Part shown: in pieces, positions 1 through 26,144 of the stretch
How the letters are laid out: every line of letters starts with the position of its first letter
Position numbering within the stretch: position 1 is the first letter of the stretch
NCBI GenBank assembly: GCA_964608175.1
Contig: CAZSMO010000008.1
Location: 10,291-74,290 of the forward strand
DNA: 64,000 bases
Direction: 5' to 3'
Origin: an uncultured Muribaculaceae bacterium
Lineage (GTDB): Bacteria; Bacteroidota; Bacteroidia; Bacteroidales; UBA932
The notes under the pieces: model-generated
Seen by the model: the letters and a program-made list of their open reading frames with translations, nothing else
Databases searched by the model: none
What the model was told of the DNA's origin: nothing
Position numbers and translations under genes: made by a program

Positions 1-1646
1 TAATCCTCGGAAAGTTCAGGTGCAGCCTTGGTGGGATCAGGGTTATTGTAGCCCTGGAGCACAGGATTTCCCTCCAGTTCGCTCTGAGGGATGCACCAGT
101 TCCACCATGGATAGATGCCACTCACATCGTAACGGTATCCGGCCTGTACATTGTTGCCACTCTGGTTGGTATGATAGCCTGCAGCAAGTCTCTTGAAGTC
201 GAACCAGATGATGCCCTCGCCCCAGAACTCAACTCTCTTCTGTCTGAATACTTCCTGCTGGAAAAGCGCCGCATCAGTAATGGAAGAGATATCGTAAGAC
301 GGATTTCGGGTGAGCATCAACTCGTTCAGGACGCTCATACCACCGGCCAAATCACCTGACATTGCCCTGGCCTCAGCTTCGATGAAATACATCTCCTCAA
401 CCCTCATTAGAGGCACATCGGACGCGCCGCCTACAGAATAAGTGTCGCAATCGCCCTGTGCCGGACGGAATTTGAGGGAAGTGTAGGCAGGGAGAGCTTG
501 GCGCCCAGTGAATACATTGCGGTTGAGCTTGTACGCATAGTAGTCATTCCCATTGGGATCAATCCATGAATGCTTTCTCCAGTCAGTGTCCGGGATGGAA
601 TTGTAGAGGGCTTTGTTGATCCCTCTTGCAACACTCCAGCCGTAGGCAGTCCATGTATTCTCGGCACTCATATGTGCATTGAAGTTGCAGAGGTTGCCCA
701 TGGTCTCGGCACTGTACTGCAGATTCCACATCCAAGAGTTGGAGTTGGCACTTGCATTGTTGAAGCCGGTCGTGGGATTTTCCCATTGATCCTGAGTAAG
801 AGGCGAGCCTCCGAAAGTATCGCGAGCCTTCTTGGCATATTCTGCGGCACTTGCGAAAGCCCCGGTGACTCCGGCAGACCCTCTCTGCAGATAAGCCCTT
901 GCTTTAAGTCCATACACTACAGCGAGGCCGGGAAGCAGAGTGGATGTGGACGTGTAATCCGCAAGATAGGTCTCGGCGGCATCAAGGTCGGCGAAAATCT
1001 TCTCATAGAGCTCGTCCACAGGCAACCTCGGGTTGGCTTTGCCCTCATCTTGAGTGGTAGCTTCGCTCACATAAGGGACAGTCAGTCCGGTGATGTCGTT
1101 TTCGGGAACATAGCTGGCGGATATGCTTGGATCGGTAGGCTGCTTGTATTCATAGATGCAGGCCATGTCAAGGTAGCAGAAAGCCCTGATTGCGAGAGCC
1201 TGGCCAAGGTACGCAAGCTGTGTGGCGTTCGCCGTCTCGGGATTGACTGCAGAGATGACATCATTGGCACTCTTGACGAACATATAGAATGTCCTCCAAG
1301 GAACATAGGCACGGGAAGAAGTCGGGCCGCAGGTATACTCATTGCTGGACCAGTATGAGTACCAGTCGTAACCGCTCTCTCCATTGTCCACAATCTCTCC
1401 GACATTGCTGTCGAGCATTATCATAATGCCCGGATATGCCATGTCGTATTCATAGGTCTGGGTGCCATAGATGAGATAGCCCTGAACCATCTGGGCTGGA
1501 ATAGCACTCACCATCGCTTCGAGAGCGGATGACGATTTGCCGATTTGCTCCGTAGTCGCCTCATTTGTAGGGAAAGTCTCTTTGATGCATCCCGTCAGAG
1601 CGACAAGAAGGGCAAGAGCTGCGGATATTGATTTGTATGTTTTCAT
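1..1646 (-). CDS. RagB/SusD family outer-membrane lipoprotein (~548 aa; the stop codon probably straddles the window edge)
   Basis: Not in the ORF track. My manual reading: ATG at 1646 (MKTYKSISAALALLVALTGC, a lipobox), directly downstream of SusC, ending ...WCIPQSELEGNPVLQGYNNPDPTKAAPELSED, a typical SusD C-terminus, with TA at positions 2-1. Only the ends of the frame were read in full. Confidence 0.9.
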   Translation of the reverse strand, partial: MKTYKSISAALALLVALTGCIKETFPTNEATTEQIGKSSSALEAMVSAIPAQMVQGYLIYGTQTYEYDMAYPGIMIMLDSNVGEIVDNGESGYDWYSYWSSNEYTCGPTSSRAYVPWRTFYMFVKSANDVISAVNPETANATQLAYLGQALAIRAFCYLDMACIYEYKQPTDPSISASYVPENDITGLTVPYVSEATTQDEGKANPRLPVDELYEKIFADLDAAETYLADYTSTSTLLPGLAVVYGLKARAYLQRGSAGVTGAFASAAEYAKKARDTFGGSPLTQDQWENPTTGFNNASANSNSWMWNLQYSAETMGNLCNFNAHMSAENTWTAYGWSVARGINKALYNSIPDTDWRKHSWIDPNGNDYYAYKLNRNVFTGRQALPAYTSLKFRPAQGDCDTYSVGGASDVPLMRVEEMYFIEAEARAMSGDLAGGMSVLNELMLTRNPSYDISSITDAALFQQEVFRQKRVEFWGEGIIWFDFKRLAAGYHTNQSGNNVQAGYRYDVSGIYPWWNWCIPQSELEGNPVLQGYNNPDPTKAAPELSED

Positions 1647-1662
1647 ATTTCTGTCCTCCTGT

Positions 1663-4600
1663 TTAGAATTTGAATGTGACACCACCGGAGACAGTTCTCA
1701 CCGGCACATAAGTCGAGTAGTTCGTGCTGCCGGTGAACGAGTACCTGGGATCGAATCCCTTACGGGCAGAAATATAACCCAAGTTCTCGGCTGCAATGTA
1801 GAGCCTTAAGGAGCTCACGCCAAGCGGCTTTGTCAATTTCTCGGGGAAGGTGTATCCAAGGTTGACATTTTCGATGTTGAGATAGCTCGCATCAGTGAGA
1901 AATCTGTCGGAAGATGCGGCTGAATAAAGATCACCATATCTGAAAGCAGGAATATTGGAAGATTTGTTCTCCGGAGTCCACGCATTCAGCAGGTCCTTGT
2001 GGAAGTTGGTTCCGGTGTCACCGGCACTTGGCGAAGACATGAAAGCGGCGTAGCCGGAATCATATGCCTTACCGCCGAGCTGATAGGAGCAGTTGATACT
2101 GAAGTCGAAACCGTGGAAGTAGAGACTCGTACCGATTCCGCCATAGAGTTCGGGGATAGGGCCGTCAGCGAGATAGTAGTCGGCCTCGGAATAGGTCGAG
2201 GTAGTCTCCTTGCCGGTAATATTGCCGTCCTCGTCTTTGATGTTCTTATACCAGAGTGAGACACCGGTCTCGGGGTCAACCCCGGCATACGACTTGAGGT
2301 AACGGGTGTACAGAGGCAGATTCTCACCAATGAAATAGCTGCCATCGGTATATCCGGCATGGTCTTCCATAGTGAGAGTCTTCACATCATCTGCAAGATA
2401 GGTTATTTCGTTGCGAAGTCTCGTGGCATTGAAATTGACGCTCCATTGGAAGTTTTTCTTTCTCACGAGATTGAGATTAACGGAAAGCTCACCGCCATAG
2501 TTGACCATATCACCGATATTGTCATAATAGGATGAATATCCAAGCGAAGGGGACACGCTGAATGCGAAGAGCATGTCAGTGGTCTTGCGATAGAACCCTT
2601 CAAGGGATCCGTCAATCAAACCGTTAAACAAAGTGAATTCCACTCCGGCATTGGTATTGGTATTGGTTTCCCAAGTGATATCCTTCTTTCCTTTACTGTT
2701 GAAGACAACGGAAACCTGACCGCCTGAAGGCGAAATCGAGTAGGTGTCTGTGTAGAGATAAGATCCGATGTTGTCATTACCCTGCGAACCGGTGGAGGCC
2801 TTAATCTTCAACAGGTCTACCCAAGCCACATCAAACCAGTCTTCCTTGCTGATAAGATATGCGGCACCGGCAGACCAGAAGTTACCCCAACGGTATTCGG
2901 GAGCGAATCTAGAAGAAGCATCGCGGCGGAACGAACCCGAGACGAAAATCTTGCTGTCGTAATCGTATTGAGCACGGGCGAAGTAACCTTCGTTGTTGTA
3001 CTCGCTTGTGTAAGAGTATGCGCTCTGCCCATCTATCACGGCACCGGCGAGTTCCTTGTTGTCCTGTGAGAACATGTTCTGCTTCGATGCATAGAGGTAT
3101 TTGTACTCATCGAGATAGTACTCGTGACCGAGCATGAGACTCACATTGTGCAGGCCAAAGGAACGGTTGAAGTTGAGGAGCTGCTGGAAGTTGAAGGCTT
3201 CGCTGCGGGAGTTGGACTTGCTGACAGTACCGCCCGAACCGGCAAACTGTCCGTAATAGGGATTCAGCACGGTCGTTCCTCTCGTCTCGTCAATGGTCTT
3301 GCTGGCATTGAGGGTAAACTTCAGGCCAGGAAGAATGGTAAAGTCGGCAATCCCGTTGGCGCTGAAGGCATTACCTTCGGAATTGCGGGTATTGAGGATA
3401 TTGTTGGACAAGGCGTTGGAGTTGGGCATGAAAGGACGGGTCAGTCCTGCGTTCATACCATCACCATAGTCGTACATCGTCAGGCCGTTTTCATCCTTGA
3501 GGATGTTCCCCTGTGCATCACGTACATACAGAGGGTAGATGGGGGCCATCTGCGAAGCGAATGCCCAGATGTTACCGGTTGAATTGGATGTCCCGTTATC
3601 CGACAGAGAGTTGTAGTTAAACTTGGTGTAGGACATGTTGCCGGTCACCTTGAGCCACTTCTTGGCTTGGTAATCCGCTTTCAGACGGGAAGTGAACCTC
3701 TGCATGTCGGAATTGTAGGTGATACCTTCGTTGTCGAGGTAACCGACTGATCCGTAGTAGTGCCCCTTGTCGTTTCCACCCGCAACGCTTACATTGTATT
3801 CCTGACGGATGGCGTTACGGTAAGACTCCTTCATCCAGTCATCAGGCGTGATCAGATAGTCTTCACCTTTGTAAGTCACCACATTGCCAAGTGTGGCATT
3901 GGGATTGATCTTACCATTGCGCCCGATGAAGAGCTCCCCATCCGGCACGGTATAAATCTGATATCCAAGACCGCCGGCATTGGCAGGACCGGTAATCACA
4001 GAGTTGGCCTGAACATTTGCAGCACCTGCACTGGCTCCGTTGAAAGTGTAACTGTTGACAAGCGCAGCATAGTGAGTCTCGTAGTACATTGCAGGGTCGG
4101 TAATGACATCGTAGCTCTGAAGGCCCTTGGAATTGACACCCACTTTGGCATCAACGGTCACGACCGCTTCCTGCTTCTTGGCACCTTTGGTGGTGATAAT
4201 GATTACACCATTAGCTCCACGAGCCCCATAAAGGGCATTGGAAGCCGCATCCTTAAGAACAGTGATGTTCTCCACATCGGAGGGGTTCAGATTGTTAATG
4301 TCTCCATCGTAAGGAGCGCCATCTACAATGAAGAGCGGCTCCTTGCCTGCGGAAATGGAACTGAATCCGCGGATACGAATACTCGGAGTCGAACCCGGAG
4401 CTCCGGAGGATTGGGTGAGCTGTACACCTGCCACCTGTCCGGCAAGAGCCGATGTGACTGCGCTCACCTGTGATTTTGCCAATTCGGTCTCCCCAACGAC
4501 TTTCGCCGATCCCGTGAAGGACTCCTTGGTGGAGGTTCCGAATGCCACAACGATGGTCTCATCGAGGACTTCCGAGTCAGGAGTAAGGGTAATGTTAACC

Positions 4601-4878
4601 ACCTTCCTCCCTGCTACGGGAATGGTGAGATCCTCATATCCCTGGCATGTGACGAGCAGTTCCGCGTCACCGGGTACGCTGATTGAGTATTTACCCTCTG
4701 CATCGGTAAAAGCGTACACCGTCAGGCTTCCTACCTGCTGGATGGCAACGCCCGGGACCGTGTCCCCAGTCACCGAATCGGTAACCGTGCCGCTGACCGT
4801 GGAGGCATTTTGCGCAAACGCAACTGCCCCTACCAGTAGGGCCAAAAAGGTTGTGATGATGATTTTAGCTTTTTTCAT
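1663..4878 (-). CDS. SusC/RagA family TonB-dependent receptor (left locus)
   Basis: ORF 1663..4890, likely start MKKAK at 4878. It has a carboxypeptidase-regulatory-like N-domain, the plug motif VLKDAASNALYGARGANGVIIITTK and a C-terminal ...GGVTFKF. Confidence 0.96.
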   Translation of the reverse strand: MKKAKIIITTFLALLVGAVAFAQNASTVSGTVTDSVTGDTVPGVAIQQVGSLTVYAFTDAEGKYSISVPGDAELLVTCQGYEDLTIPVAGRKVVNITLTPDSEVLDETIVVAFGTSTKESFTGSAKVVGETELAKSQVSAVTSALAGQVAGVQLTQSSGAPGSTPSIRIRGFSSISAGKEPLFIVDGAPYDGDINNLNPSDVENITVLKDAASNALYGARGANGVIIITTKGAKKQEAVVTVDAKVGVNSKGLQSYDVITDPAMYYETHYAALVNSYTFNGASAGAANVQANSVITGPANAGGLGYQIYTVPDGELFIGRNGKINPNATLGNVVTYKGEDYLITPDDWMKESYRNAIRQEYNVSVAGGNDKGHYYGSVGYLDNEGITYNSDMQRFTSRLKADYQAKKWLKVTGNMSYTKFNYNSLSDNGTSNSTGNIWAFASQMAPIYPLYVRDAQGNILKDENGLTMYDYGDGMNAGLTRPFMPNSNALSNNILNTRNSEGNAFSANGIADFTILPGLKFTLNASKTIDETRGTTVLNPYYGQFAGSGGTVSKSNSRSEAFNFQQLLNFNRSFGLHNVSLMLGHEYYLDEYKYLYASKQNMFSQDNKELAGAVIDGQSAYSYTSEYNNEGYFARAQYDYDSKIFVSGSFRRDASSRFAPEYRWGNFWSAGAAYLISKEDWFDVAWVDLLKIKASTGSQGNDNIGSYLYTDTYSISPSGGQVSVVFNSKGKKDITWETNTNTNAGVEFTLFNGLIDGSLEGFYRKTTDMLFAFSVSPSLGYSSYYDNIGDMVNYGGELSVNLNLVRKKNFQWSVNFNATRLRNEITYLADDVKTLTMEDHAGYTDGSYFIGENLPLYTRYLKSYAGVDPETGVSLWYKNIKDEDGNITGKETTSTYSEADYYLADGPIPELYGGIGTSLYFHGFDFSINCSYQLGGKAYDSGYAAFMSSPSAGDTGTNFHKDLLNAWTPENKSSNIPAFRYGDLYSAASSDRFLTDASYLNIENVNLGYTFPEKLTKPLGVSSLRLYIAAENLGYISARKGFDPRYSFTGSTNYSTYVPVRTVSGGVTFKF

Positions 4879-5091
4879 AAGCTGATACATTAATAAAACA
4901 AACTATACTAACTAAACTTTAGTTACTCACCTTTGTCTGACACCGCAGACTTCGCTCCTGCAATTACAGTTTTCCGTCACCGCCGCGTTGCCCGCTTTCT
5001 TTCTCTGCACCCTTCAGCCACTTCGAACCTCGTAATCTGAAACGTTTGGCTCGTTTCTTGCTGATATCAATTCTGTCTTTACGCACCATTT

Positions 5092-5112
5092 AACGAGGGT
5101 TTTTTGGTGCGA
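5092..5112. repeat. Left arm of a 21-bp perfect inverted repeat AACGAGGGTTTTTTGGTGCGA (candidate invertase crossover site)
   Basis: Exact reverse complement of 6098-6118. It is embedded in a 30-bp dyad, CGCACCA-N16-TGGTGCG (5082-5111). Confidence 0.85.
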
Positions 5113-5191
5113 ATGCCAAGGGGGGGGGAGGGAAGATTGAGGTGGAGCAATTGTAATTAATTTACAATTAGCGTATTATGTTCGATATACT

Positions 5192-5797
5192 ATGGTTTAC
5201 GCTTATGTGAGGGTCAGTACGGACCAGCAATCCTGCTCGAGTCAGGAATTCGAAATCAGGAATTGGGCTACAGCCCATAATATAGTCATAGACAGGTGGA
5301 TAAGGGAGTCTATTCACGGCACGGTCCCAGTTGCCCGGCGTAAGCTTGGGAAGTCCATAGGCAAAATGAGACCCGGGGATATGCTCGTCTGCACCGAGAT
5401 ATCCCGTCTTGGGCGAAATGTCCTTATGATTATGGGGGTACTGAATTACTGTTGCGAGAGGGAGATTGGGATACGGACGATTAAAGACAATTTTGATCTC
5501 AGCGAGAACCTGAATTCCAAGATAATCGCTTTCGCCTTTGGCTTATCGGCTGAGATTGAACGGAATCTGATTTCGCAACGCACGCGGGAAGCCCTTGCCG
5601 ACAAGAAGGCTTCAGGAGTGAAGCTGGGACGCCCTCGGGGAAGCCGGAAAAAATACGCCCAAATCAGTGCTGACGCTGAGAAGATTATAAGGGAACACGA
5701 CAGCGGAGTCAGTTACACCAGTATCGCTCACCGTTACAGTATCCACCCGAATACCCTCCGACGCTACCTGCGTCAGATTCAGGCTGACAGTATTTGA
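5192..5797 (+). CDS. mpi: Serine recombinase / DNA invertase, Mpi (multiple promoter invertase) family
   Basis: YVRVST catalytic Ser motif, SRLGRN, the Mpi-like stretch AFAFGLSAEIERNLISQRTREAL, LGRPRG and a C-terminal HTH; 201 aa. Confidence 0.88.
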   Translation: MVYAYVRVSTDQQSCSSQEFEIRNWATAHNIVIDRWIRESIHGTVPVARRKLGKSIGKMRPGDMLVCTEISRLGRNVLMIMGVLNYCCEREIGIRTIKDNFDLSENLNSKIIAFAFGLSAEIERNLISQRTREALADKKASGVKLGRPRGSRKKYAQISADAEKIIREHDSGVSYTSIAHRYSIHPNTLRRYLRQIQADSI

Positions 5798-6097
5798 GCC
5801 AAACCGCACTTGAAATGGCGCTGTGACTCAGTTTAAGTGAGAATAGGGCCAAAGCGGCAGGAACTCATGCGAGCCCCGCTGTTAACCTATAAGAGAAATT
5901 TTTTAAGAAATTTCGTAAAAATTTTTAATAACAAATTAAAACTTCACGCCTCTGATTTGTGTTAAATTCTAACTAAATCCCCGTAATACCCTATTAAACG
6001 CAGGGCAAATTAGGCCGAAATACAAGTTTTTAGGCAGAAAAGAAAGTTTTGGAGATATTTGGAAAGTTAAAATTTAATTGCGATATTGCACTCGAAA

Positions 6098-6118
6098 TCG
6101 CACCAAAAAACCCTCGTT
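6098..6118. repeat. Right arm of the 21-bp perfect inverted repeat, TCGCACCAAAAAACCCTCGTT
   Basis: Exact reverse complement of 5092-5112; the pair brackets a 1027-bp segment. Confidence 0.85.
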
Positions 6119-6344
6119 TTTCATACGACAAACGGGGAGAAGTAAAGAAGCCCTTACTGAATAAGAAGCGCTACAATCACTTTTTCGATAATAGAGTCTT
6201 TTCAATAAGCGTGCCTAATGAAACAAAGTAAGTAACAATTGTATTATATAATAGTTTTAGTGTATTCAAAAGTTCGCGGGAAAATCAGTTTCCGCTGATA
6301 ATAATCCGCATGCACAGAATGTATTCTTTAATTTATTAATGCTT

Positions 6345-9320
6345 ATGAAAAAAGCCAAATTTCTCATTGTGGCCATTGCAGCTATGCTGACAGGCAGCAG
6401 TGCTTTCGCGCAGAATAGTGTGGAAGTGAGTGGAACTGTCACGGATGCTGCAAGTGGCGAGCCGATTGCCGGAGCCGGAGTGGTAGTGAAAGGAACTTCG
6501 TCTGGAGTCGCAACAAATCCAGACGGCACCTACACCCTGACCGCATCATCCGGAGCAACCCTCGTATTTTCCGCAATCGGGTTTGTCTCTCAAGAAGTTA
6601 CGCTTGATGGCGATATGGTGGTTGATATCGCCCTCCAAACCGATGCAGAGCTCCTTGAAGGAACCGTAATCGTGGGCTATGGCTCTGCCCGTAAGGTTGG
6701 AAACATTGTAGGATCGGTAAGCACCGTATCCGCTGAAGAGATTTCCGAAAAGCCATCTGCCAATGTAGCAGACGCTCTCCAGGGCAAGGTCGCCGGTCTG
6801 CAGGTGTTTAACACTTCGGGAGAGCCTTCTTCCTCTGTCTCATTGAGGCTGCGGGGAGAATCCTCCATTAATCTCAGCACTGCACCTCTTTACATTTTGG
6901 ACGGAATCCCTGTCAGCAGTCTGGTCTTTTCGACGATAAACCCTTCGGACATTGAGAATATCTCCGTCCTCAAAGATGCCTCTTCTACAGCCATTTATGG
7001 CTCACGGGCCGCGAATGGAGTAATCTTCATTACCACGAAGAAAGGGCATGCAAGTGAGAAACCCTCCGTGTCTGTCAGGGCTCAGTATGGAGTATCCATG
7101 CTCACTACTTACAACTATGACATGATGTCGGCATCGGAACTGCTTGAATACGAGGAATTAATCAATCCATCGCTCAAAAATGACATCACACGTCAGGTTT
7201 TTAAGGACTACGTCAACGGCAACGGAATTAATTTCAATTGGACTGATTACCTCTTTGATAAGAGTGCTCCACTATATCAGGTAGATGCTACTGTCCGTGG
7301 AGCAACAGACAAGACCAGCTACTACCTTTCGGCAGGTTTCTACTCGGAAGAAGGCACTTCGAAAATCAACTCCAACAACAAACGCTTCAACATCCGCAGC
7401 AATGTGAGCACCAGGATTACCCCCTGGCTTGAGGTTGGAGAGAACATCGGGCTTTCGTTCAGCAAGTATAAGACAATCGTGACAGGTTGGTATAGTCAGT
7501 CGCCTATGCTCGTGGCAGTTACAGAAATTCCCTACTACACTCCCTACGAGCAGATTCTCAATGCAGATGGTACGGTAAGTTATGGCGAAAGGTATCTCCA
7601 GTATCCTTGGGACAGTCAAATGGATCTCATCGAGTACTATAAGTACAACACGAACGACAAACAGAATGCCCAAATTACGGGACAGGTCTATGTACAGCTG
7701 TCTCCTATCAATGGGCTGAAGATCCGTTCGGTAGCTGCCGCAGATGCTTACGACTATACCAACGAGTCCATCGCCAAACCATCATTTACTCCTTATTCCT
7801 ACAGGGGAAGCAATTCGCAGTATTTTGAGCGTTATTATCAGATATCAACCACCAACACTGCGGAATATGCAACCAATTTTGGCCTGCACAACCTGATTTT
7901 CCTGCTTGGACAGGAATCGATACTGAAACACCAGAAAATCCTCTCTGCCTATGGAACCGGTCTCACCGATGATCGCCTGACTGCCTTTTCAACTGCCACG
8001 AAAATCGAAGAGTGGTCCGGATACAATGAAGAAGCTGCGTTTAACTCCTTCTTTGCCAACACCAACTACAACTACGATGAGCGCTACTTTGCGGATGCTT
8101 CCGTGCGTATTGACGGCTCGTCAATCTTCGGAGCCAATAACAGGTACGCCACTTTCTGGTCCGCGGGTCTCATGTGGAAAGCAAAGCACGAGAATTTCCT
8201 TCGCGATGTATCTTGGCTCAACTGTCTCGATGTCAATCTGACATATGGAACTACAGGCAACTCGGGGATGATCTCCTGGTATCCATCTCTCGGGCTTGTC
8301 GGAGCAGGAGCCAAGTATAACAATGTCAGTGGCTGGGCTCTTTCTCAGGTTCCCAATGCCGATCTGTCATGGGAAACAGTATCTACCGCAAATGCGAGAA
8401 TCTCTGCACGAGTGCTTGGAAGATTCTCGGTGGACTTCCAGTTATACAACAAGTACTCAAGCGACCTGCTTATGGAGCTTCCATATTCGGCAACAACAGG
8501 GCATACCTCCGGATGGGGCAATGTCGCCGAACTCTCCAACAAAGGCATGGATTTGGAACTCTCGCTTGATCTCATACACAGCAAAGACTTTTATTGGAAT
8601 GTCAGCGCGAATGTCAATTACAACCGCAACCGCATAGAAAAACTCTATCAGGGATTGGATGAAATTACTTTTGAGGATTACGGCCTCAAGTATGAAGTCG
8701 GTCATGACCTCAACGAAGTTTATGTCCCGATTCGTGCAGGAGTCGATCCTGAAGACGGGTCTCCAATGTGGTATACCCGTGAGGGAGAGACCACCAAAGT
8801 GTACACCGATGATTTGTACCAGTTCTGGGAAGGAAAGAGTACGAATGCCCCCTGGTCGGGAGGGTTCTCGACAGCAGTCTCATGGAAGAATTTTGGGCTG
8901 AATGCTGATTTTTCTTGGATTGGAGACAGGTACATCTTCGTCAACGAGCGATACTACACAAGGAATACATACAATCTCCTCGGACAGAGCAATTTTGAAA
9001 AATGCATGTTTGACATCTGGACCGAGCCGGGACAAGTCACCGACATCCCAAAATACGGGACTCCGTTTTACTTTGACACTTCGTGGTATTCCAATGCCGC
9101 CTTCCTTCGCCTGAAAAATATCACCCTCTCCTATACTGTTCCGGCATCAGCACTCGGATGGAAGACAGTTTCCGGCGCAAAAGTTTATGTAACCGGAAGA
9201 AATCTGCTCACATTCACGAATTTCGAAGGCTACGACCCCGAGGTTGGCTATTCAAACGGTACTGTAGGACTATATCCCAATTCAAGACAAGTCGTCATCG
9301 GGGCAGAAATTACTTTCTAA
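6345..9320 (+). CDS. SusC/RagA family TonB-dependent receptor (right locus)
   Basis: ORF 6339..9320, likely start MKKAK at 6345. Plug motif VLKDASSTAIYGSRAANGVIFITTKKG and C-terminal ...GAEITF. Confidence 0.96.
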   Translation: MKKAKFLIVAIAAMLTGSSAFAQNSVEVSGTVTDAASGEPIAGAGVVVKGTSSGVATNPDGTYTLTASSGATLVFSAIGFVSQEVTLDGDMVVDIALQTDAELLEGTVIVGYGSARKVGNIVGSVSTVSAEEISEKPSANVADALQGKVAGLQVFNTSGEPSSSVSLRLRGESSINLSTAPLYILDGIPVSSLVFSTINPSDIENISVLKDASSTAIYGSRAANGVIFITTKKGHASEKPSVSVRAQYGVSMLTTYNYDMMSASELLEYEELINPSLKNDITRQVFKDYVNGNGINFNWTDYLFDKSAPLYQVDATVRGATDKTSYYLSAGFYSEEGTSKINSNNKRFNIRSNVSTRITPWLEVGENIGLSFSKYKTIVTGWYSQSPMLVAVTEIPYYTPYEQILNADGTVSYGERYLQYPWDSQMDLIEYYKYNTNDKQNAQITGQVYVQLSPINGLKIRSVAAADAYDYTNESIAKPSFTPYSYRGSNSQYFERYYQISTTNTAEYATNFGLHNLIFLLGQESILKHQKILSAYGTGLTDDRLTAFSTATKIEEWSGYNEEAAFNSFFANTNYNYDERYFADASVRIDGSSIFGANNRYATFWSAGLMWKAKHENFLRDVSWLNCLDVNLTYGTTGNSGMISWYPSLGLVGAGAKYNNVSGWALSQVPNADLSWETVSTANARISARVLGRFSVDFQLYNKYSSDLLMELPYSATTGHTSGWGNVAELSNKGMDLELSLDLIHSKDFYWNVSANVNYNRNRIEKLYQGLDEITFEDYGLKYEVGHDLNEVYVPIRAGVDPEDGSPMWYTREGETTKVYTDDLYQFWEGKSTNAPWSGGFSTAVSWKNFGLNADFSWIGDRYIFVNERYYTRNTYNLLGQSNFEKCMFDIWTEPGQVTDIPKYGTPFYFDTSWYSNAAFLRLKNITLSYTVPASALGWKTVSGAKVYVTGRNLLTFTNFEGYDPEVGYSNGTVGLYPNSRQVVIGAEITF

Positions 9321-9332
9321 TTAGACAGCCAT

Positions 9333-10859
9333 ATGAAGAAAATCTTAACTATATTATCCCTTGTGTCGGGAATTGTCTTAAGCACATCCTGCAATCTTGA
9401 CAAGTATCCCGAGACCGCAATCAATACGGATGAGGCGATGGAAAGTGCAGCCGACTGCTATAACTTCCTCACCGGGCTGCGAGCCAGCACCAAATCCCTG
9501 TATAGCGGATTCTACTGCTATGCAACGGACTTTATGACCGACAGTTACCATGCAATCAAGAATTACGGCAACTGGGACGGAGACTATCTCACATACAATA
9601 TTCAGGCATCCGACAGTAACATCGAGACGGTGTGGAACAATTTCTACGCCTATATCGGAAATGCCAATTTCCTGATAGCCGGAACCGGCAAACTCCTCGA
9701 AAGCGAAACTCTATCCGCTGACGATGAATCCTTAGTCAAGAGCTATTATGGGGAAGCCTGCTTCTTAAGGGCTCTGATGTACTTCAAACTCACGGAATAC
9801 TTCTGTGTGGCCTATGACAAGGAGACAGCCGCATCCGTCTTCGGGGTTCCCGTTGTCACAGTCTATGCTCCTACCGGGGATTCGGGCAAATACCCGCACA
9901 GAGGGACGCTCCAGGCCACCTACGACCAGATTGCCCTTGATATTGCTGAGGCAGAGGCAAATGTTGCCGCTGCCGGCTCGCAGAACAGTGGCTATGTCAC
10001 GGCCGATGTGGTCAAAGCCTTCAAAGCCAGGTTCTCACTCAGTGCACAGGACTACACCACGGCATTTTCGTGCGCAAAAGATATCATCGACAGCGAGACG
10101 TACACTTTCGCCGCATCGGCTTCAGAGTTTAAGTCCGGTTGGATAAATGACAATCTCAGCGAGACCATCTGGCAGCCCATTATCCTCGATGCCAGCGATG
10201 GTGGAAGTGCCAACTCCTATTTTATCTACAACACAAGTGGAGAAGACGGAGACGATGATCCTCAATATCTTCCTGAGGACTGGGTACTTATGCTTTACGA
10301 CCAAACCAACGACATGCGCTGGTCGGCTTACTTCGAGCAGAGGCATATTGACAAGAGAGGCAACAATGGAGACCTTACTCTCCTTATCAAATTCCCAGGG
10401 AATCCTGCCCTCAATTCAAGTTCGGCATCCCACTATATCAATCGCCCTAAGATATTCAGACTCGGCGAAATATACCTGATTGCGGCAGAAGCGGCATACG
10501 AATCGGGGGATGAGACTGCTGCGTCAAACTATCTCAACGAGCTTAAGAAGTATCGTATCGCCCATTGGTCAAGTGTCTCTTACAGTGGGGAGAGCCTCAA
10601 GCAGGAGATCCGCAATGAACGCGTAAGAGAGCTCTTCGGTGAGGGATTCCGCCTCAGTGACATCAAACGCTGGCATATCGGTTTCAGCCGCTCCGAAGGG
10701 CAGAACCCGGCTCTGCTCCAAACCGGTCCAAATTACACGGAGCTTTCAATGCCCGCTGACAGTCCCAGGTTCGTGTGGCCTATCCCTACCAGCGAAATGA
10801 GCGCAAATCCCCAGATGAAGGGAGAGCAAAATGAGGGTTATACACAAGATACGATATGA
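9333..10859 (+). CDS. RagB/SusD family outer-membrane lipoprotein
   Basis: Lipobox LSTSC, IFRLGEIYLIAAEA and ERVRELFGEGFRLSDIKRW; it follows SusC. Confidence 0.95.
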   Translation: MKKILTILSLVSGIVLSTSCNLDKYPETAINTDEAMESAADCYNFLTGLRASTKSLYSGFYCYATDFMTDSYHAIKNYGNWDGDYLTYNIQASDSNIETVWNNFYAYIGNANFLIAGTGKLLESETLSADDESLVKSYYGEACFLRALMYFKLTEYFCVAYDKETAASVFGVPVVTVYAPTGDSGKYPHRGTLQATYDQIALDIAEAEANVAAAGSQNSGYVTADVVKAFKARFSLSAQDYTTAFSCAKDIIDSETYTFAASASEFKSGWINDNLSETIWQPIILDASDGGSANSYFIYNTSGEDGDDDPQYLPEDWVLMLYDQTNDMRWSAYFEQRHIDKRGNNGDLTLLIKFPGNPALNSSSASHYINRPKIFRLGEIYLIAAEAAYESGDETAASNYLNELKKYRIAHWSSVSYSGESLKQEIRNERVRELFGEGFRLSDIKRWHIGFSRSEGQNPALLQTGPNYTELSMPADSPRFVWPIPTSEMSANPQMKGEQNEGYTQDTI

Positions 10860-11776
10860 AAAAGACAGTTTTACTTTTAATTGCGGTGGCCGGAGGGATC
10901 TTCGCCTCCTGCACAGATAATTCAGAACTTTCGCAGGCAAACAAGGGGAAGGAGAAACCTTCGGTCAGCGTAAGTTGTGTCGATTCCACCTTAACCGAGT
11001 TCTACCTCAACTTTCAGGCTTCTGAAGGAAGCAAATATGTAGCCTACGCTGTCTATGCAGGGGATGCTTATACCGAGCCGTCTGCATACGAGGTTCTTAC
11101 AAAAGATGTTAGCGGGACTATAGCCTCCAATGTCTACGAATGTGGCAGTGAGGCTTTTACGGATACCGTGCTCTGCATTCTCAAAGACGATTACCATGTC
11201 TATGCTGCTGCCATGACTGGAGATGGCCTGATTGGGGAGGTGACAAAGTATGATGTCACGATCGAAGGGGCTCATCCGGCAGTGACATTAAAACTGGGCA
11301 CTTACACCATTACACCCTCTGCCGAAGCAGTCGCACAGTTCGACCCGACCTATGAAAAATACACGGCGGAGCCTATGAGCATCACTCTCTCTCAGTTTTC
11401 TGACACCGAGTTCCTCGCATCGGGGTATTGGTTCAATCTGTTGAGTTTCGATTTTGTGGGGACATATGATTATTCAAAGAACCAGCTTGTATTCGATGGA
11501 ACGGTTTATTGGGGAGAAGAATACGGCACGGAGAATGACTTCGGCGGAGCTTTTTGGCTATCCAAGAGTGACGGCATTATATATGCTCTATGGGGAGCAG
11601 GCAGCGAAGGATATGACCCGATGATCTTCCAGTGTAAAGTTGCAGGCGAGGATGCAATTCCCACAAGCGTTGTCCAGGGCATCGACTTTGAAGCATACTA
11701 TTATCCAAGTTATGAGTGGATAAGCTCTTTAGCTTACTTTGAAGGAGGAGAGACAATTACGGCTGACGCTGAATAG
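10856..11776 (+). CDS. Uncharacterised surface lipoprotein co-transcribed with SusC/D
   Basis: Lipobox IFASC, ATGA overlap with the SusD stop, 306 aa, no recognisable catalytic motif. Confidence 0.75.
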   Translation: MKKTVLLLIAVAGGIFASCTDNSELSQANKGKEKPSVSVSCVDSTLTEFYLNFQASEGSKYVAYAVYAGDAYTEPSAYEVLTKDVSGTIASNVYECGSEAFTDTVLCILKDDYHVYAAAMTGDGLIGEVTKYDVTIEGAHPAVTLKLGTYTITPSAEAVAQFDPTYEKYTAEPMSITLSQFSDTEFLASGYWFNLLSFDFVGTYDYSKNQLVFDGTVYWGEEYGTENDFGGAFWLSKSDGIIYALWGAGSEGYDPMIFQCKVAGEDAIPTSVVQGIDFEAYYYPSYEWISSLAYFEGGETITADAE

Positions 11777-12938: not shown

Positions 12939-14429
12939 TTAGTTATATGTCATATAAGAGTTTAGTAAACTTAACTGCCGAAGTCGGTCCTCCCGCGCAT
13001 TCCCACTATCCTGAATGACACGATATTCGAAATTAGCCCCACTTCGTTTGCAGGCAAGATAAAGTTCATCTGCAGCCAGATAGCCTGAACCGTCATCGGT
13101 GGTAGAGAAGAATATATTGTCTCCACTCTCCACCACAGGGTCGGAAAGCAACGGATTCGCCATGACAATGGATTTGAAGTCCTCCTTTCTTTGAAGCACA
13201 TCTTGCGCCGCATCTCCAAAAGCCACTGCATTCCAGCTGTCTATACTATATCTCTCCTCCCAATGCTTCTCCCAGTCTTCAATACCCTTTTCGTTAAGAT
13301 TGCAAGGCAAAAAGGCAAAGCGATACTTTGTATTGGACGACCACATCACGCCCATTGCCTCTTTGAGCTCTTCTTCGGAAAGCCCGCGATGACAGAATAG
13401 AACCCCTCTGTTTGAATCATTCATATCAAATGCAGAAGAAAGTACCACCCCGTCTTCTTTGAAATCAAGGCTGTTTATCGTATAAGATTTCAGTGCACAT
13501 TCAGGCCATTGAATGGTGCCATTCATATAATGGTCGAAGTAAGGGAGCACCTCGAAGAGTGCCTCCATCCAATAGGATGAAGTATGACCTCCGTTCCCAA
13601 CCCTATACTCGTGGGCATAGCCCCTGTCACGAAGCAACACATGCAGGGAATCTCCGGCTATAAGCAGGTTCTGCTCATCGTCACCGCAGGTAAAAAACCA
13701 ATTAACAGTGCCAAGTACAGCTTTATTCGCTTCATTAAACTGATAATACGGGCAATGCTCCTTATAATAATCCGTAAGGCGTTCTTCTCCTGACTTCCCT
13801 ATTCCCCCAAATATCTTACCCCACTGGTCGTCCCATCCGCTTTGAGATTCGGCCATATACTGGGCATCCGTGCGGAAAGACATGCTGAGAGGAGCACTGC
13901 AACTGAAGATTTCAGGGTGTTTTTCGGCAAGAACCATAGCCCCAAATCCTCCCATGGAATAGCCTGTAAGCGCTCTGTGCTCTCTGTCGGGGATAGTCCT
14001 GAAGGTCTTGTCGATGTAAGGGACCAGTTCATTGACAAACATGTCCATGTAGTTGTATTTCCCGGACCAGTAATTACAATAGTAGGTATTAAACCCATTT
14101 GGGAACACATAAATCATTTCCGAGAGGCCCTGCCCTTCGAGGGTCTGTATCCGCGTGTTGGCATGGAGGTAGCGTCCGTTCCAGGAGCGGTAGTTATCTC
14201 CGTAGCCGTGAAGCATATACACGACCGGATAGGTCTTATCCCCATCTGTTTCGTAAGATGAGGGAAGAAGTACCGCGAAGTTGATATCAGTGCCAAGTAT
14301 TTCGCTATGCATCACCAGACTGTCATTGTAACGCACAAACTCCGCTTGCTCCATGGAAGAGGATGAGCATTGGCAGGCCGAAATCAATGACAGCAGAATG
14401 GTGAAAAACACTGATAGAGGCTTCCTCAT
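12939..14429 (-). CDS. Secreted esterase (alpha/beta hydrolase, putative esterase family)
   Basis: YPVVYMLHG, nucleophile elbow GYSMGG, GGHTSSYW His motif and a signal peptide. Confidence 0.82.
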   Translation of the reverse strand: MRKPLSVFFTILLSLISACQCSSSSMEQAEFVRYNDSLVMHSEILGTDINFAVLLPSSYETDGDKTYPVVYMLHGYGDNYRSWNGRYLHANTRIQTLEGQGLSEMIYVFPNGFNTYYCNYWSGKYNYMDMFVNELVPYIDKTFRTIPDREHRALTGYSMGGFGAMVLAEKHPEIFSCSAPLSMSFRTDAQYMAESQSGWDDQWGKIFGGIGKSGEERLTDYYKEHCPYYQFNEANKAVLGTVNWFFTCGDDEQNLLIAGDSLHVLLRDRGYAHEYRVGNGGHTSSYWMEALFEVLPYFDHYMNGTIQWPECALKSYTINSLDFKEDGVVLSSAFDMNDSNRGVLFCHRGLSEEELKEAMGVMWSSNTKYRFAFLPCNLNEKGIEDWEKHWEERYSIDSWNAVAFGDAAQDVLQRKEDFKSIVMANPLLSDPVVESGDNIFFSTTDDGSGYLAADELYLACKRSGANFEYRVIQDSGNAREDRLRQLSLLNSYMTYN

Positions 14430-15946
14430 AATTTGTCGTATATAACCATTTCCTGCGCGTTCACGACAAAGTCGGGATCCGGATTAAGGAGACGTAGAGT
14501 GAGTGTATGCGAACCGCTTTCGAAACAATATTTCGAAAAGATTTCGTATTTGCGGGTAATATAGTCGTAGGGCATCTTAAATACCTCCACTTCCTCTCCA
14601 TCTAGCAGGGCCTGGATTGTAGCCACATAAGCCTTGTCACTGTGCCCTGTCCTGACTACGCTTCCCTCTACCACGATGGAGTTCCCAGTAAACTGAAGCA
14701 CAAGGTCATCCGTAGAGAACTGCTTCTTTAGCACTACTTTGTTCGTCGGGGTGATGCCCTCAAAGGACTGTTCATACGGAGCTTGAACCGGCCTGTTTAC
14801 AGACACGGAAAGCCCATTTTCAGACCATTGTGAAAGGTCGGTTGCAGCCTTTATCAGCTCAAGTGTCTTCACACAGGCTGTGTTAAGCGATATGGAGGTG
14901 TAAGGGAAGGGCAGGTCGGCGATGGCTTCCGCCCCTTTCCTGTAAGTATCGGGAATTGCTGAATAACCGATTATTACTCCTAAAACACCCGCAGCCGTGG
15001 CAGGATTACAATCTGAATCCTGACCACAGCGGGTCGCAATTTCCATTGTCTTTTCGAAGTCTCCTTCCCCATACAGGAGAGCGATAACCACATAAGCCGC
15101 ATTGATTTTTGCGTCTATATTGAAGCCGTTCCAAACCCCTTCCGGGCAACCTTTCTCGTAACTGTATTTCTGCTCGATTCCCATCCAGCAGCGTTTCCAA
15201 TCATTCGGATACTTGGCATTCAAGGCTATGACATCATCGATGCAGGCACGAAACCCCGTGCCACTGGGAATCACATTACTGGCAGCCTCCACGATGGAAG
15301 GTATGTCGTCACAGACATATGCGAAGGCATAGAGGGCACTGGTAAACACTCCCCCATACCAGCCATCCCCATAGTTCATAATGTGGCCGATGCGGTCGCA
15401 AAGATTCAGTGCCAATTCTACATTTCCGGGGCAAAGCATTCCAATGAAATCAGACTCGATTTGGAAATCTATGTCGTCAGCATGCGGGTTGTGTTTCCAA
15501 TCCCCGGACATAGGGGCAGGGATGCCGTTCAGGATATTGTAACGCGCAGCCTGGTTGGCATGCCACAGCTTGTAAGAAGCCTTTGCAAAGCGGTCTGCAT
15601 AAAGCTGCGTGGGGGCATCAAGGCCATTCTCTGACATTACTTCAAGGAAAGTGAGATCCATATACACATCGTCATAGAGTCCGGGATCCTCAACGAATGT
15701 CTCGGCTATATAGCCGTCATACCAGATAATTGGCTGGCAATCCGGAATAAGTCCCCCCTTATACTTAAATTCAGTGGGACCTCCATAGGTGCATCCGATA
15801 GTCTGTGCAAACCACCCACCCCGCACCTTATCCTCCAGCACGTCTTCTGCAATGGTAATGGTCTTGCCGTAAGGTACGCTTGAAGTCTTGGTGCAGGAAA
15901 CTGCAGCCAAGCCAAAGATAAGAAGTGTTGAGACGGAGGCTTTCAT
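14426..15946 (-). CDS. ADP-ribosylglycohydrolase-family lipoprotein
   Basis: Lipobox AAVSC, the family opening KVRGGWFAQTIGCTYG, and acidic motifs YDDVYMD and CGQDSDCN. Confidence 0.85.
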   Translation of the reverse strand: MKASVSTLLIFGLAAVSCTKTSSVPYGKTITIAEDVLEDKVRGGWFAQTIGCTYGGPTEFKYKGGLIPDCQPIIWYDGYIAETFVEDPGLYDDVYMDLTFLEVMSENGLDAPTQLYADRFAKASYKLWHANQAARYNILNGIPAPMSGDWKHNPHADDIDFQIESDFIGMLCPGNVELALNLCDRIGHIMNYGDGWYGGVFTSALYAFAYVCDDIPSIVEAASNVIPSGTGFRACIDDVIALNAKYPNDWKRCWMGIEQKYSYEKGCPEGVWNGFNIDAKINAAYVVIALLYGEGDFEKTMEIATRCGQDSDCNPATAAGVLGVIIGYSAIPDTYRKGAEAIADLPFPYTSISLNTACVKTLELIKAATDLSQWSENGLSVSVNRPVQAPYEQSFEGITPTNKVVLKKQFSTDDLVLQFTGNSIVVEGSVVRTGHSDKAYVATIQALLDGEEVEVFKMPYDYITRKYEIFSKYCFESGSHTLTLRLLNPDPDFVVNAQEMVIYDKL

Positions 15947-15948
15947 CG

Positions 15949-21023: not shown

Positions 21024-21036
21024 CGCCATGAACAAT

Positions 21037-23949: not shown

Positions 23950-23983
23950 TTTCCTTTTAAGGTTTAATGGGAGTTGGGAAGCA

Positions 23984-25006: not shown

Positions 25007-25008
25007 GG

Positions 25009-25911: not shown

Positions 25912-26075
25912 TTTGGGTTATCAGTTTTTAGTTTCAGCCTTTTCGGTCATCCTGGATACCTTAAACAGGCTTCCGAATCCAAATTTAGGAGATATGAAGA
26001 CAGAGTAATGCATCCCACTGCGCAAAAATTGCTAAAAAGAAGGTAATTTTTTGCGAAAATTTGCACAATTTTGCA

Positions 26076-26083
26076 TAAATTTG
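26076..26083 (+). promoter_or_regulatory. Bacteroidetes -7 promoter element TAAATTTG upstream of lacI
   Basis: Exact TAnnTTTG match about 60 bp upstream of the ATG. Confidence 0.55.
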
Positions 26084-26144
26084 CGCGACAAAGAGCTGCC
26101 AATAGCGAGACATATATCTGTTGGCCAATAATTTACACACCAAT

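What the first reader, a model, noticed from the sequence alone, without database searches (positions are those of the whole stretch)
5092..6118. Self-contained invertase cassette that could flip expression between two divergent SusC/SusD operons
Seen: a perfect 21-bp inverted repeat brackets a 1027-bp segment holding an Mpi-family serine recombinase gene plus ~300 bp of AT-rich DNA, and a SusC start lies 200-250 bp outside each arm, pointing away. The left arm sits in a 30-bp dyad (CGCACCA-N16-TGGTGCG) with an asymmetric AG centre. Known: B. fragilis Mpi inverts promoters in trans, serine-invertase sites are ~26-30-bp dyads, and phase-variable SusC/D loci exist in Bacteroides. Inference: this is a locally encoded either/or switch in which the recombinase inverts its own gene together with a promoter. 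The only candidate I found is GATATTTG at 6054-6061, one mismatch from TAnnTTTG.
Basis: partly seen in the sequence, partly recalled or inferred. Interest (0 to 1): 0.72.

Follow-up and report, generated by a model that had tools for sequence, protein, structure and literature searches.

The report
Self-flipping promoter cassette between two SusC/D operons
A 1-kb DNA segment carrying its own serine recombinase gene and an outward-facing promoter sits between two back-to-back nutrient-transporter operons of a gut Bacteroidales bacterium, and related cassettes are found flipped in public assemblies, so it most likely switches expression from one transporter pair to the other.

Summary
A perfect 21-bp inverted repeat (5092-5112 / 6098-6118) brackets 1027 bp. 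That segment holds an intact 201-aa Mpi-like serine recombinase gene and about 300 bp of AT-rich DNA. Divergent susC/susD operons start 201 and 220 bp outside the arms.

The same layout recurs in at least nine recombinase lineages (48-81% identity). Each repeat lies in a hix-like dyad of about 28 bp. Its central dinucleotide differs between lineages but is always reverse-complementary between the two arms of one locus.

In two homologous groups (62% and 68% identity), public assemblies hold the cassette in both orientations between flanks that are 99-100% identical. The breakpoints fall inside the dyad centre. Two single-sample assemblies carry both junction types.

A conserved promoter-like block (TTTG-N20-GATATTGC, 6058-6089) points outward through the right arm.

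Not shown: inversion in this organism, the transcription start, and that the local enzyme does the flipping. The element combines Hin-type architecture with SusC/D phase variation, which is known only with tyrosine recombinases. I found no published description.

The parts
3..1646 (-). Left susD (lipoprotein, runs off the window start), second gene of the left operon
   Evidence: Pfam SusD-like_3 and SusD_RagB. Start at 1646 with signal MKTYKSISAALALLVALTGC.
1663..4890 (-). Left susC (1075 aa), transcribed away from the cassette
   Evidence: TIGR04056 743.9 bits. Pfam Plug and CarboxypepD_reg. Only 27.5% identical to the right susC.
4891..5091 (-). Left 201-nt leader between the site and the susC start. 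No TAnnTTTG-like box (1 mismatch or fewer) on the minus strand.
   Evidence: The proximal ~50 nt is an imperfect inverted repeat of the right leader (I1 and I3).
5083..5110 (.). Left recombination site: GCACCATTTAACG-AG-GGTTTTTTGGTGC (13+2+13), predicted crossover dinucleotide AG at 5096-5097. The 21-bp repeat arm is 5092-5112.
   Evidence: Family-wide dyad and core covariation. Breakpoints in homologues map to this centre.
5113..5191 (+). Region upstream of the recombinase gene, with a G9 run at 5120-5128
5192..5797 (+). Serine recombinase / DNA invertase, 201 aa, nucleophile Ser9 in YVRVSTDQQ, C-terminal helix-turn-helix region
   Evidence: Pfam PF00239 at 1.6e-29. NF009949 254.8 bits. Closest solved structures are Gin invertase 4m6f/3uj3 and Tn3 resolvase, E about 1e-11. 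All family-invariant residues are present.
5798..6097 (+). AT-rich spacer (GC 0.30-0.37) holding the outward promoter-like block
6058..6089 (+). Promoter-like block TTTG(6058-6061)-N20-GATATTGC(6082-6089), reading rightward. The predicted start lies at about 6094-6100, at the inner edge of the right arm.
   Evidence: Invariant ATTTGG and CGA..TTGC columns in 6 relatives. The same TTTG-N18-22-nAnnTT(T/G)(G/C) position in 17 of the 28 loci scanned, with canonical TAnnTTTG in L003, L005, L007, L009, L015, L043 and L045.
6100..6127 (.). Right recombination site: GCACCAAAAAACC-CT-CGTTTTTCATACG, core CT at 6113-6114. The repeat arm is 6098-6118. The outer half is degenerate (6 of 13 dyad matches).
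6119..6338 (+). Right 220-nt leader
   Evidence: only TAGTTTTA at 6252-6259, 1 mismatch.
6339..11776 (+). Right operon: susC 6339-9320, susD 9333-10859, and an unknown 306-aa ORF 10856-11776. This is the side the promoter block faces in the sequenced orientation.

Best explanation
This is a Hin-type invertible cassette. The small serine recombinase encoded at 5192-5797 is proposed to bind the two ~28-bp dyad sites, cut at the central AG/CT dinucleotides (5096-5097 and 6113-6114), and invert the 1016 bp between them, including its own gene (inferred). At the recombinase-distal end the cassette carries an outward promoter-like block (6058-6089) whose transcripts would cross the right site and a ~220-nt leader. 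As sequenced, that block faces the right susC/susD/ORF operon. After inversion it would face the left susC/susD operon. That would give a heritable, reversible choice between two very different transporter pairs (27.5% identity between the susC genes, about 24% between the susD genes). Shown here: the anatomy, an intact enzyme, conservation of sites and layout across the family, and natural inversion at these sites in homologues. Inferred: activity in this genome, the transcription start, dependence of both operons on the cassette promoter, and that the local enzyme is the one that acts.
For: (1) The perfect 21-bp repeat is unique in the window and absent from shuffles. (2) The recombinase is intact, with the Ser nucleophile and all family-invariant residues. 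(3) The same layout, susC<- leader, site, recombinase->, AT-rich block, site, leader ->susC, with 836-1108 nt between arms, occurs in the window, L020, L007, L009, L012, L014, L033-37, L043 and L053-58. Their recombinases are 55-81% identical to the window's. L018 (48% identical) shares the repeat-bracketed cassette and the dyad site but has no flanking susC. (4) The sites form one dyad family (W-tract, C(C/G), 2-bp core, (C/G)G, W-tract). The core differs between lineages: AG in the window, L020, L033, L014, L043 and L054; GG in L007; AC in L018. It is always reverse-complementary between the arms of one locus. (5) Inversion is seen in nature. In the P0104 group, L055/L059 and L058/L060/L061 carry the identical recombinase between the same two susC flanks in opposite orientation. 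The B flank is 99.8-99.9% identical over 3.3 kb in L060/L061 and 99.0% in L058. The C flank, on much shorter or more diverged stretches, is 99.0% over 203 nt in L061, 94% over 241 nt in L060 and 87% in L058. The swap is confined to AAAAGGAG around the predicted AG core. In the P0011 group, L043/44/48 and L046/47/49/50 have the two leaders exchanged exactly at the 22-bp repeat. Contigs L051 and L052 carry one leader's 8-mer at both cassette ends or branch at the repeat, so both states occur in one sample. (6) The promoter-like block is conserved and positionally equal to canonical Bacteroidetes TTTG-N19-TAnnTTTG promoters in L007 and L009, each about 23 nt from the core. (7) Neither leader has a canonical -7 box, and no terminator-like site lies on the + strand between the recombinase stop and the right susC. 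(8) No regulator gene lies next to either operon.
Against: There is no read-level or assembly-level evidence for this organism, because no run holding the window was found. The outer half of the right site matches the dyad at only 6 of 13 positions. The closest relatives (L001, L024, L025; 81-83% identity) have only the promoter-side site, so the switch may be decaying in part of this clade. The -7-like box GATATTGC matches TAnnTTTG at only 3 of 6 specified positions. In the P0110 group, all eight contigs that span a site, out of ten examined, show one orientation. Logan contigs of three runs span the inner sites of L007 in the reference orientation only.
Confidence: 0.72

Rival explanations
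1. The cassette inverts but is not an either/or transcriptional toggle. Each susC operon has its own, non-canonical promoter in its leader. Inversion then only modulates one side, or recombinase expression, or adds read-through.
For: The -7-like box in the window clade is weak. One 1-mismatch box, TAGTTTTA at 6252-6259, lies in the right leader. Leaders and first codons are conserved among unrelated susC genes, which could reflect their own regulatory signals.
Against: The conserved promoter-like block sits at the same place in 17 of the 28 loci scanned, and seven of those 17 carry a fully canonical TAnnTTTG box. No -7-like box lies on the minus strand in the left leader. Divergent susC genes flank both sides in nine lineages, which is hard to explain if only one side is controlled.
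Confidence: 0.14
2. A fossil or locked switch. The architecture is inherited from an active family, but in this genome inversion no longer happens, so the right operon is permanently on.
For: The right outer half-site is degenerate. The nearest relatives lack the left site altogether. L020's right site carries a C-to-A change and an extra T.
Against: The 21 bp covering the core and the inner half are still perfectly identical, while the sequence on both sides of them has diverged completely. The recombinase ORF is intact with all invariant residues. In my recollection the natural hix sites also have one poor half-site.
Confidence: 0.1
3. An insertion-sequence-like mobile element with terminal inverted repeats that happened to land between two susC genes.
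For: It is about 1 kb, has terminal inverted repeats and holds a single recombinase gene. The recombinase family also occurs in non-susC contexts (L026-L032).
Against: The position between divergent susC genes is conserved across lineages down to 55% identity. The two states in the P0104 and P0011 groups are in-place inversions between the same flanks, not insertions. The repeats are dyad crossover sites with an asymmetric core. No second copy exists in the 64-kb window.
Confidence: 0.03
4. The inverted repeat is a chance match or a simple operator, and the recombinase acts elsewhere in trans, like Mpi.
For: Mpi itself acts on 13 distant regions (PMC4747536).
Against: No match in any of 100 shuffles. 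The repeats covary and are conserved across the family. Breakpoints of natural inversions lie in the homologous repeats.
Confidence: 0.01

Closest known systems
Hin / H-segment flagellar phase switch of Salmonella, and the Gin/Cin/Pin invertases
   Same: A small serine recombinase of about 190-200 aa. The recombinase gene lies inside an invertible segment of about 1 kb together with an outward promoter. The segment is bounded by dyad sites with a 2-bp asymmetric core and an A-tract-CC half-site. As I recall it, the symmetric hixC site is TTATCAAAAACC-AT-GGTTTTTGATAA, against GCACCAAAAAACC-CT-... here. The closest solved structure is Gin.
   Different: Only distant sequence similarity (E about 1e-11). 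Genes lie on both sides, so the switch would be direct either/or rather than on/off plus a repressor. The host is Bacteroidales, and I recall no Fis homologue being known there, so the Fis/enhancer dependence of Hin and Gin probably does not apply (not testable here). The cargo is SusC/D transporters rather than flagellin or tail fibres.
Mpi, the master DNA invertase of Bacteroides fragilis
   Same: The best family match is NF009949 at 5.4e-76 over the full length. Its target repeats, ARACGTTCGTN in B. fragilis and GTTCGTTTAA in B. intestinalis (PMC8375218), share the (T)TAAACG-NN-CGT pattern with sites of this family, for example L007 TTAAACG-GG-CGT and the window's TTTAACG-AG-GGT.
   Different: The score is below the equivalog cut-off (254.8 against 272). 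Mpi lies outside its targets and flips 13 short promoter segments in trans (PMC4747536; one such family of invertible promoters measures 183-186 bp in B. intestinalis, PMC8375218). Here the gene rides inside a single ~1-kb segment, and no other site exists in the 64 kb. The targets are susC/D rather than capsule loci.
Phase-variable SusC/SusD loci of Bacteroides (Tsr0667 shufflon in B. fragilis; BT1041/BT1042 shufflon in B. thetaiotaomicron)
   Same: Alternative SusC/SusD pairs are expressed through programmed DNA inversion, probably for nutrient choice or phage and immune evasion (PMC4747536; bioRxiv 10.1101/521070; PMC9881135).
   Different: Those systems use tyrosine recombinases. They recombine inside the 5' coding ends of susC genes, moving a promoter-linked 5' end onto alternative gene bodies. 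The recombinase gene is not part of a self-contained promoter cassette.

Membership tests
Small serine recombinases (resolvase/invertase family) | N-terminal catalytic domain with the Ser nucleophile and conserved Arg residues | tested here: met
   PF00239 at 1.6e-29 over residues 2-143. YVRVSTDQQ aligns with Gin YVRVSTNDQ. R7, S9, R72 and R75 are invariant in the family alignment.
Small serine recombinases (resolvase/invertase family) | C-terminal helix-turn-helix DNA-binding domain; total length about 180-210 aa | tested here: met
   201 aa. The alignment to Tn3 resolvase runs through residues 2-197, including its HTH. Homologues carry precomputed HTH_23/HTH_7 hits.
Hin/Gin-type DNA invertase systems | Two inverted crossover sites, each a ~26-bp dyad around a 2-bp asymmetric core | tested here: met
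   The left site is 13+2+13 with 9 of 13 dyad matches. The right site has 6 of 13. The core is AG/CT. Core covariation holds across lineages.
Hin/Gin-type DNA invertase systems | The segment between the sites actually inverts | tested here: inconclusive
   Not testable for the window, since no runs were found. It is shown for two homologous groups from public assemblies, with breakpoints in the dyad centre.
Hin/Gin-type DNA invertase systems | Dependence on Fis and a recombinational enhancer | not testable with these tools
Mpi family (NCBIfam NF009949 equivalog) | Whole-protein score at or above the curated cut-off | tested here: not met
   254.8 bits against a cut-off of 272. It is a near miss and the best-matching family.
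Mpi family (NCBIfam NF009949 equivalog) | Acts in trans on many short promoter segments flanked by ARACGTWCGT-type repeats | tested here: not met
   Only two sites exist in 64 kb, and both flank its own gene. The window repeat does not contain the Mpi consensus, though the half-site pattern is related (PMC8375218).
Invertible promoters of Bacteroidales | A Bacteroidetes-type promoter (-33 TTTG, -7 TAnnTTTG) between the repeats, reading out | tested here: inconclusive
   TTTG-N20-GATATTGC is conserved and correctly placed, but the -7 is non-canonical in this clade. It is canonical in L003, L005, L007, L009, L015, L043 and L045. There are no transcription start data.
SusC/SusD shufflons (tyrosine-recombinase type) | Tyrosine recombinase; recombination within susC 5' coding sequence | tested here: not met
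   The enzyme is a serine recombinase. The sites lie 201 and 220 nt upstream of the start codons.

The most novel reading that the evidence does not exclude
This would be one member of a large, undescribed class of self-contained serine-invertase promoter cassettes spread across uncultured gut Bacteroidales. More than 8000 related proteins were found, and many sit on cassette-length contigs. Beyond a two-way toggle, the conserved 'portable' leader and first codons shared by unrelated susC genes would let one promoter cassette be coupled to more than two SusC/D operons. Three different partners are seen with one identical recombinase in the P0104 group and three in the P0110 group. That would make it a promoter-sharing network for surface transporters.
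Probability: 0.25. Interest if true: 0.75.

Novelty: new variant of a known kind. Interest (0 to 1): 0.62.

Why it matters
SusC/D pairs are the main nutrient gates of gut Bacteroidota and frequent phage and antibody targets. A heritable, reversible either/or choice between two very different pairs would create subpopulations with different diets and different phage or immune exposure. That bears on strain persistence, phage therapy and the reading of metagenomic expression data. The mechanism joins two known themes in a way I did not find described: Hin-type self-encoded inversion and SusC/D phase variation. It occurs in Muribaculaceae-like and other mostly uncultured lineages. The cassettes also break assemblies, because many homologues sit on contigs of about 1 kb. 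From my own recollection, which I could not check here, common inverton finders limit the distance between repeats, so cassettes of about 1 kb may be systematically missed.

Tried and rejected
1. Read evidence for the window. The look-up of sequencing runs on 4700-6500 and on 20000-29000 listed no run. The exact recombinase protein is not on record.

2. Read laying on relative L007 in 8 runs.
   - Logan contigs break at a 51-nt outer repeat, which is longer than what I understand Logan's assembly word size to be (31), so they give no orientation information there.
   - The inner sites are spanned only in the reference orientation.
   - One opposite-strand joint in run X5 passes through the 51-nt repeat in a low-coverage sample. 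I treat it as a possible graph artefact, not as evidence.

3. An RNA run search for L007 returned nothing, so there is no transcript evidence.

4. Genome and metagenome scans found no near-identical locus (best 81%), so orientation polymorphism could not be tested in this species.

5. A sigma-70 promoter scan is not informative for Bacteroidetes. An Rfam scan of the leaders gave only sub-threshold snoRNA noise.

6. I compared susC orthology between L009 and L020. L009-left is 64% identical to L020-right, which suggests a flipped cassette between species. The divergence is too great to count as evidence.

7. The contig ends of L024 and L025 at the site could mean graph branching, but low coverage explains them equally well.

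8. I considered an ECF-sigma-type reading of the conserved block (GGAAT-N15-CGAC) and dropped it, because Pfam found no STN-type N-terminal signalling domain in either susC.

9. Five literature searches found no description of this architecture. Three key older papers could not be opened.

Full report
**1. The observation**

- The arms 5092-5112 (AACGAGGGTTTTTTGGTGCGA) and 6098-6118 are 21 nt and perfectly complementary.
- They are the only two matches in the 64-kb window even with three mismatches allowed. None of 100 dinucleotide-preserving shuffles gave a single match.
- Between them lies ORF 5192-5797(+), 201 aa. It hits Pfam Resolvase at 1.6e-29. Its best NCBIfam hit is the Mpi-family model NF009949, at 254.8 bits against a cut-off of 272.
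- After the ORF come about 300 bp with GC 0.30-0.37, against about 0.50 around it.
- Outside the arms, susC genes at 1663-4890(-) and 6339-9320(+) point away. They start 201 and 220 nt from the arms. Each is followed by a susD.
- The left-arm dyad CGCACCA-N16-TGGTGCG with centre A5096/G5097 is correct.

**2. The enzyme**

It is a small serine recombinase. The nucleophile motif YVRVSTDQQ aligns with that of Gin, and the closest solved structures are Gin invertase and Tn3/gamma-delta resolvase, at E about 1e-11. In an alignment with seven relatives, all 66 invariant positions are present in the window protein. The family is very large: 7996 of 8000 scored candidates had E <= 1e-20. Many of them sit on contigs of only 0.9-1.4 kb, which is about the length of the cassette.

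**3. The architecture is a conserved module**

The same order recurs in many loci: susC pointing left, leader, site, recombinase pointing right, AT-rich block, site, leader, susC pointing right. There are 836-1108 nt between the arms.

| Locus or group | Recombinase identity to the window's |
|---|---|
| L020 | 80% (39-nt repeat) |
| L007, L009 | 55-56% |
| L012, L014 | 63-65% |
| P0110 group, L033-L037 | 63% |
| P0011 group, L043 | 68% |
| P0104 group, L053-L058 | 62% |

A tblastn survey confirms divergent susC starts on both sides in these nine lineages. Some members sit elsewhere, for example next to a T9SS peptidase in L026-L032.

**4. The sites**

Aligned on their centres, the repeats form one dyad family.
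- L001 right: GCACCAAAAAACC-CT-CGTTTTTTAGTGC
- L007: GCTTAAACG-GG-CGT... and TTTTTAAACG-CC-CGTTTAAGC
- L018: TTTAAACG-AC-CGTTTAAA and TTTTAAACG-GT-CGTTTAAA
- L033: CAAAAAAACG-AG-GGTTTATTTG
- L043: CCAATAAAGG-AG-GGTTTAATGG
- L054: CCAATAAAAGG-AG-GGTTTATTT

The central dinucleotide differs between lineages (AG, GG, AC). Within every locus the two arms carry reverse-complementary centres. That is what a serine-recombinase 2-bp overlap requires, and an asymmetric overlap fixes the outcome as inversion.

In the window:
- Left site: GCACCATTTAACG-AG-GGTTTTTTGGTGC.
- Right site, read as its reverse complement: CGTATGAAAAACG-AG-GGTTTTTTGGTGC.
- The inner halves and core are identical. The left outer half matches the dyad at 9 of 13 positions and the right outer half at only 6 of 13.

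As I recall the hix sequences, the half-site (A-tract followed by CC next to the core) resembles hix. The (T)TAAACG-NN-CGT pattern resembles the Mpi-type repeats quoted in PMC8375218.

**5. Natural inversion in homologues**

This is the key evidence.

(a) P0104 group. The recombinase protein is identical in 19 contigs.
- In L055 and L059, susC-B (1067 aa) lies on the recombinase-5' side and susC-C on the promoter side.
- In L058, L060 and L061, C lies on the 5' side and B on the promoter side.
- The B flank is 99.8-99.9% identical over 3.3 kb in L060 and L061 and 99.0% over 2.0 kb in L058. The C flank rests on less: 99.0% over 203 nt in L061, 94% over 241 nt in L060 and 87% over 2.6 kb in L058. 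The cassette is 99.1-99.8% identical.
- At nucleotide level, the outer halves TTCCAAAAAAAGG (B) and TTCCAATAAAAGG (C) exchange partners between the inner halves GGTTTATTTATG and CGTTATTTTG. This confines the breakpoint to AAAAGGAG, which contains the predicted AG core.

(b) P0011 group.
- L043, L044 and L048 have one arrangement. L046, L047, L049 and L050 have the two leader-specific sequences exchanged exactly at the 22-bp repeat CACCAATAAAGGAGGGTTTAAT.
- Both states occur in run accessions of the same series.

(c) Single-sample mixtures.
- In L051 (SRR17704083), the same leader 8-mer TTGCGCGT is joined to both ends of the cassette.
- L052 (SRR6824202) branches at the repeat.
- So both orientations coexist within single samples.

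These are in-place flips of the whole cassette, recombinase gene included.

**6. The promoter**

No perfect TAnnTTTG exists anywhere in 4891-6338. An alignment of the AT-rich segment with five relatives shows two invariant blocks, ATTTGG and CGA..TTGC, 20 nt apart.

Of the 28 loci scanned, 17 carry TTTG-N18-22-nAnnTT(T/G)(G/C) at the same place. Canonical TAnnTTTG boxes occur in L003, L005, L007, L009, L015, L043 and L045. In L007, L009 and the window, the box ends about 23-24 nt from the core.

I therefore read TTTG 6058-6061 as the -33 element and GATATTGC 6082-6089 as a diverged -7 element. The start would fall near the inner edge of the right arm.

Three further points fit the model:
- No terminator-like site lies on the + strand between the recombinase stop and the right susC.
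- The left leader has no -7-like box on its coding strand.
- No regulator gene adjoins either operon.

All of this is inference. No RNA data could be found.

**7. Mechanism proposed**

Recombinase dimers bind the two dyads, synapse, cut at AG/CT, rotate and religate. That inverts 1016 bp. As sequenced, the promoter faces the right operon (susC 6339-9320, susD 9333-10859, ORF 10856-11776). After inversion it would face the left operon (susC 1663-4890, susD 3-1646). The two susC genes are 27.5% identical and the susD genes about 24% identical. The two states would therefore differ strongly in substrate and surface properties.

**8. Weak points**
- There are no data from this organism.
- The right outer half-site is degenerate.
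- The nearest relatives L001, L024 and L025 keep only the promoter-side site, with a different gene and a terminator upstream. Part of the clade may therefore be losing the switch.
- The P0110 group shows one orientation only, in all eight contigs that span a site.
- The L007 contigs show only the reference orientation at the inner sites. One joint through its 51-nt outer repeat is ambiguous.

**9. Comparison with what is known**
- In function and anatomy it is closest to the Salmonella H segment: recombinase gene and promoter inside a segment of about 1 kb bounded by dyad sites. This comparison is from established knowledge and was not tested here.
- By sequence it is an Mpi-like protein, just under the equivalog cut-off. 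Unlike Mpi, it is not a trans-acting master invertase of short promoter segments (PMC4747536, PMC8375218).
- SusC/D phase variation is known, but through tyrosine recombinases acting inside susC 5' ends. Examples are Tsr0667 in B. fragilis (PMC4747536), the BT1041 shufflon in B. thetaiotaomicron (bioRxiv 10.1101/521070) and the survey in PMC9881135.
- Five full-text searches found no description of a serine-recombinase promoter cassette between divergent susC/D operons. Absence from the searchable library is not proof of novelty.

**10. Verdict**

The feature is real. It is a new variant of a known kind, and its mechanism is well supported at family level. I put 0.72 on the full model for this locus and rate interest at 0.62.

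Noticed in passing
window 5120-5128: A G9 homopolymer (then A, then GGG) lies just inside the left arm, 64 nt upstream of the recombinase ATG. It is absent from relative L020. It could add slipped-strand variation of recombinase expression.
   Followed up: no
L033-L037 (left flank about 1-3420); L053-L062: With an identical recombinase and an identical leader plus first codons, the susC on the recombinase-5' side differs between assemblies. It is 1062, 1081 or 1005 aa in the P0110 group. In the P0104 group it is A (1063 aa) or C (1047 aa). This suggests modular replacement of susC/D bodies downstream of a conserved 'portable' leader, or further recombination partners.
   Followed up: partly
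L034 about 4317-4352 and L039 (promoter-side site): A 36-nt insertion lies exactly at the core of the promoter-side site, bounded by CT...CT. It creates two tandem half-site pairs (AAATAAACC-CT-CATTTATTT ... ATGAATG-CT-CGTTTTG).
   Followed up: no
L001 1-1175; L024; L025: The closest relatives of the window recombinase (81-83% identity) have the promoter block and the promoter-side site facing a susC. They have no site upstream of the recombinase. Instead there is the end of another gene and a perfect 18-bp hairpin (L001 94-139). This is either a single-site or locked variant, or the partner site lies far away.
   Followed up: partly
L007 4839-4889 / 5962-6012; L009, L012, L014, L033 equivalents: The susC 5' UTR and first codons on the two sides form long outer inverted repeats (30-51 nt perfect, up to 375 nt at 70%). 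These break k=31 assemblies. In run X5 they give an opposite-strand joint that may be an artefact or homologous recombination.
   Followed up: partly
L026-L032: A recombinase of the same family (69% identity) sits between a T9SS-tailed S8 peptidase gene and an AAA_14/DUF4143 ATPase gene. No susC and no recognisable dyad site are present.
   Followed up: no
window 14426-24000: Another susC/susD pair (21037-24000, 19467-21035, minus strand) is followed by two proteins with ADP-ribosylglycohydrolase domains (15949-19572, 1207 aa, with an Ig-like domain; and 14426-15946) and an esterase (12939-14429). This is an unusual gene set for a polysaccharide utilisation locus.
   Followed up: no
L005 5677-5742 and L015: In these relatives a 30-nt near-palindrome (ATTCCAAAAATTAGCGTAATTTTTGGAAT) overlaps the canonical promoter downstream of the recombinase, and the next susC lies about 2 kb away.
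   Followed up: no
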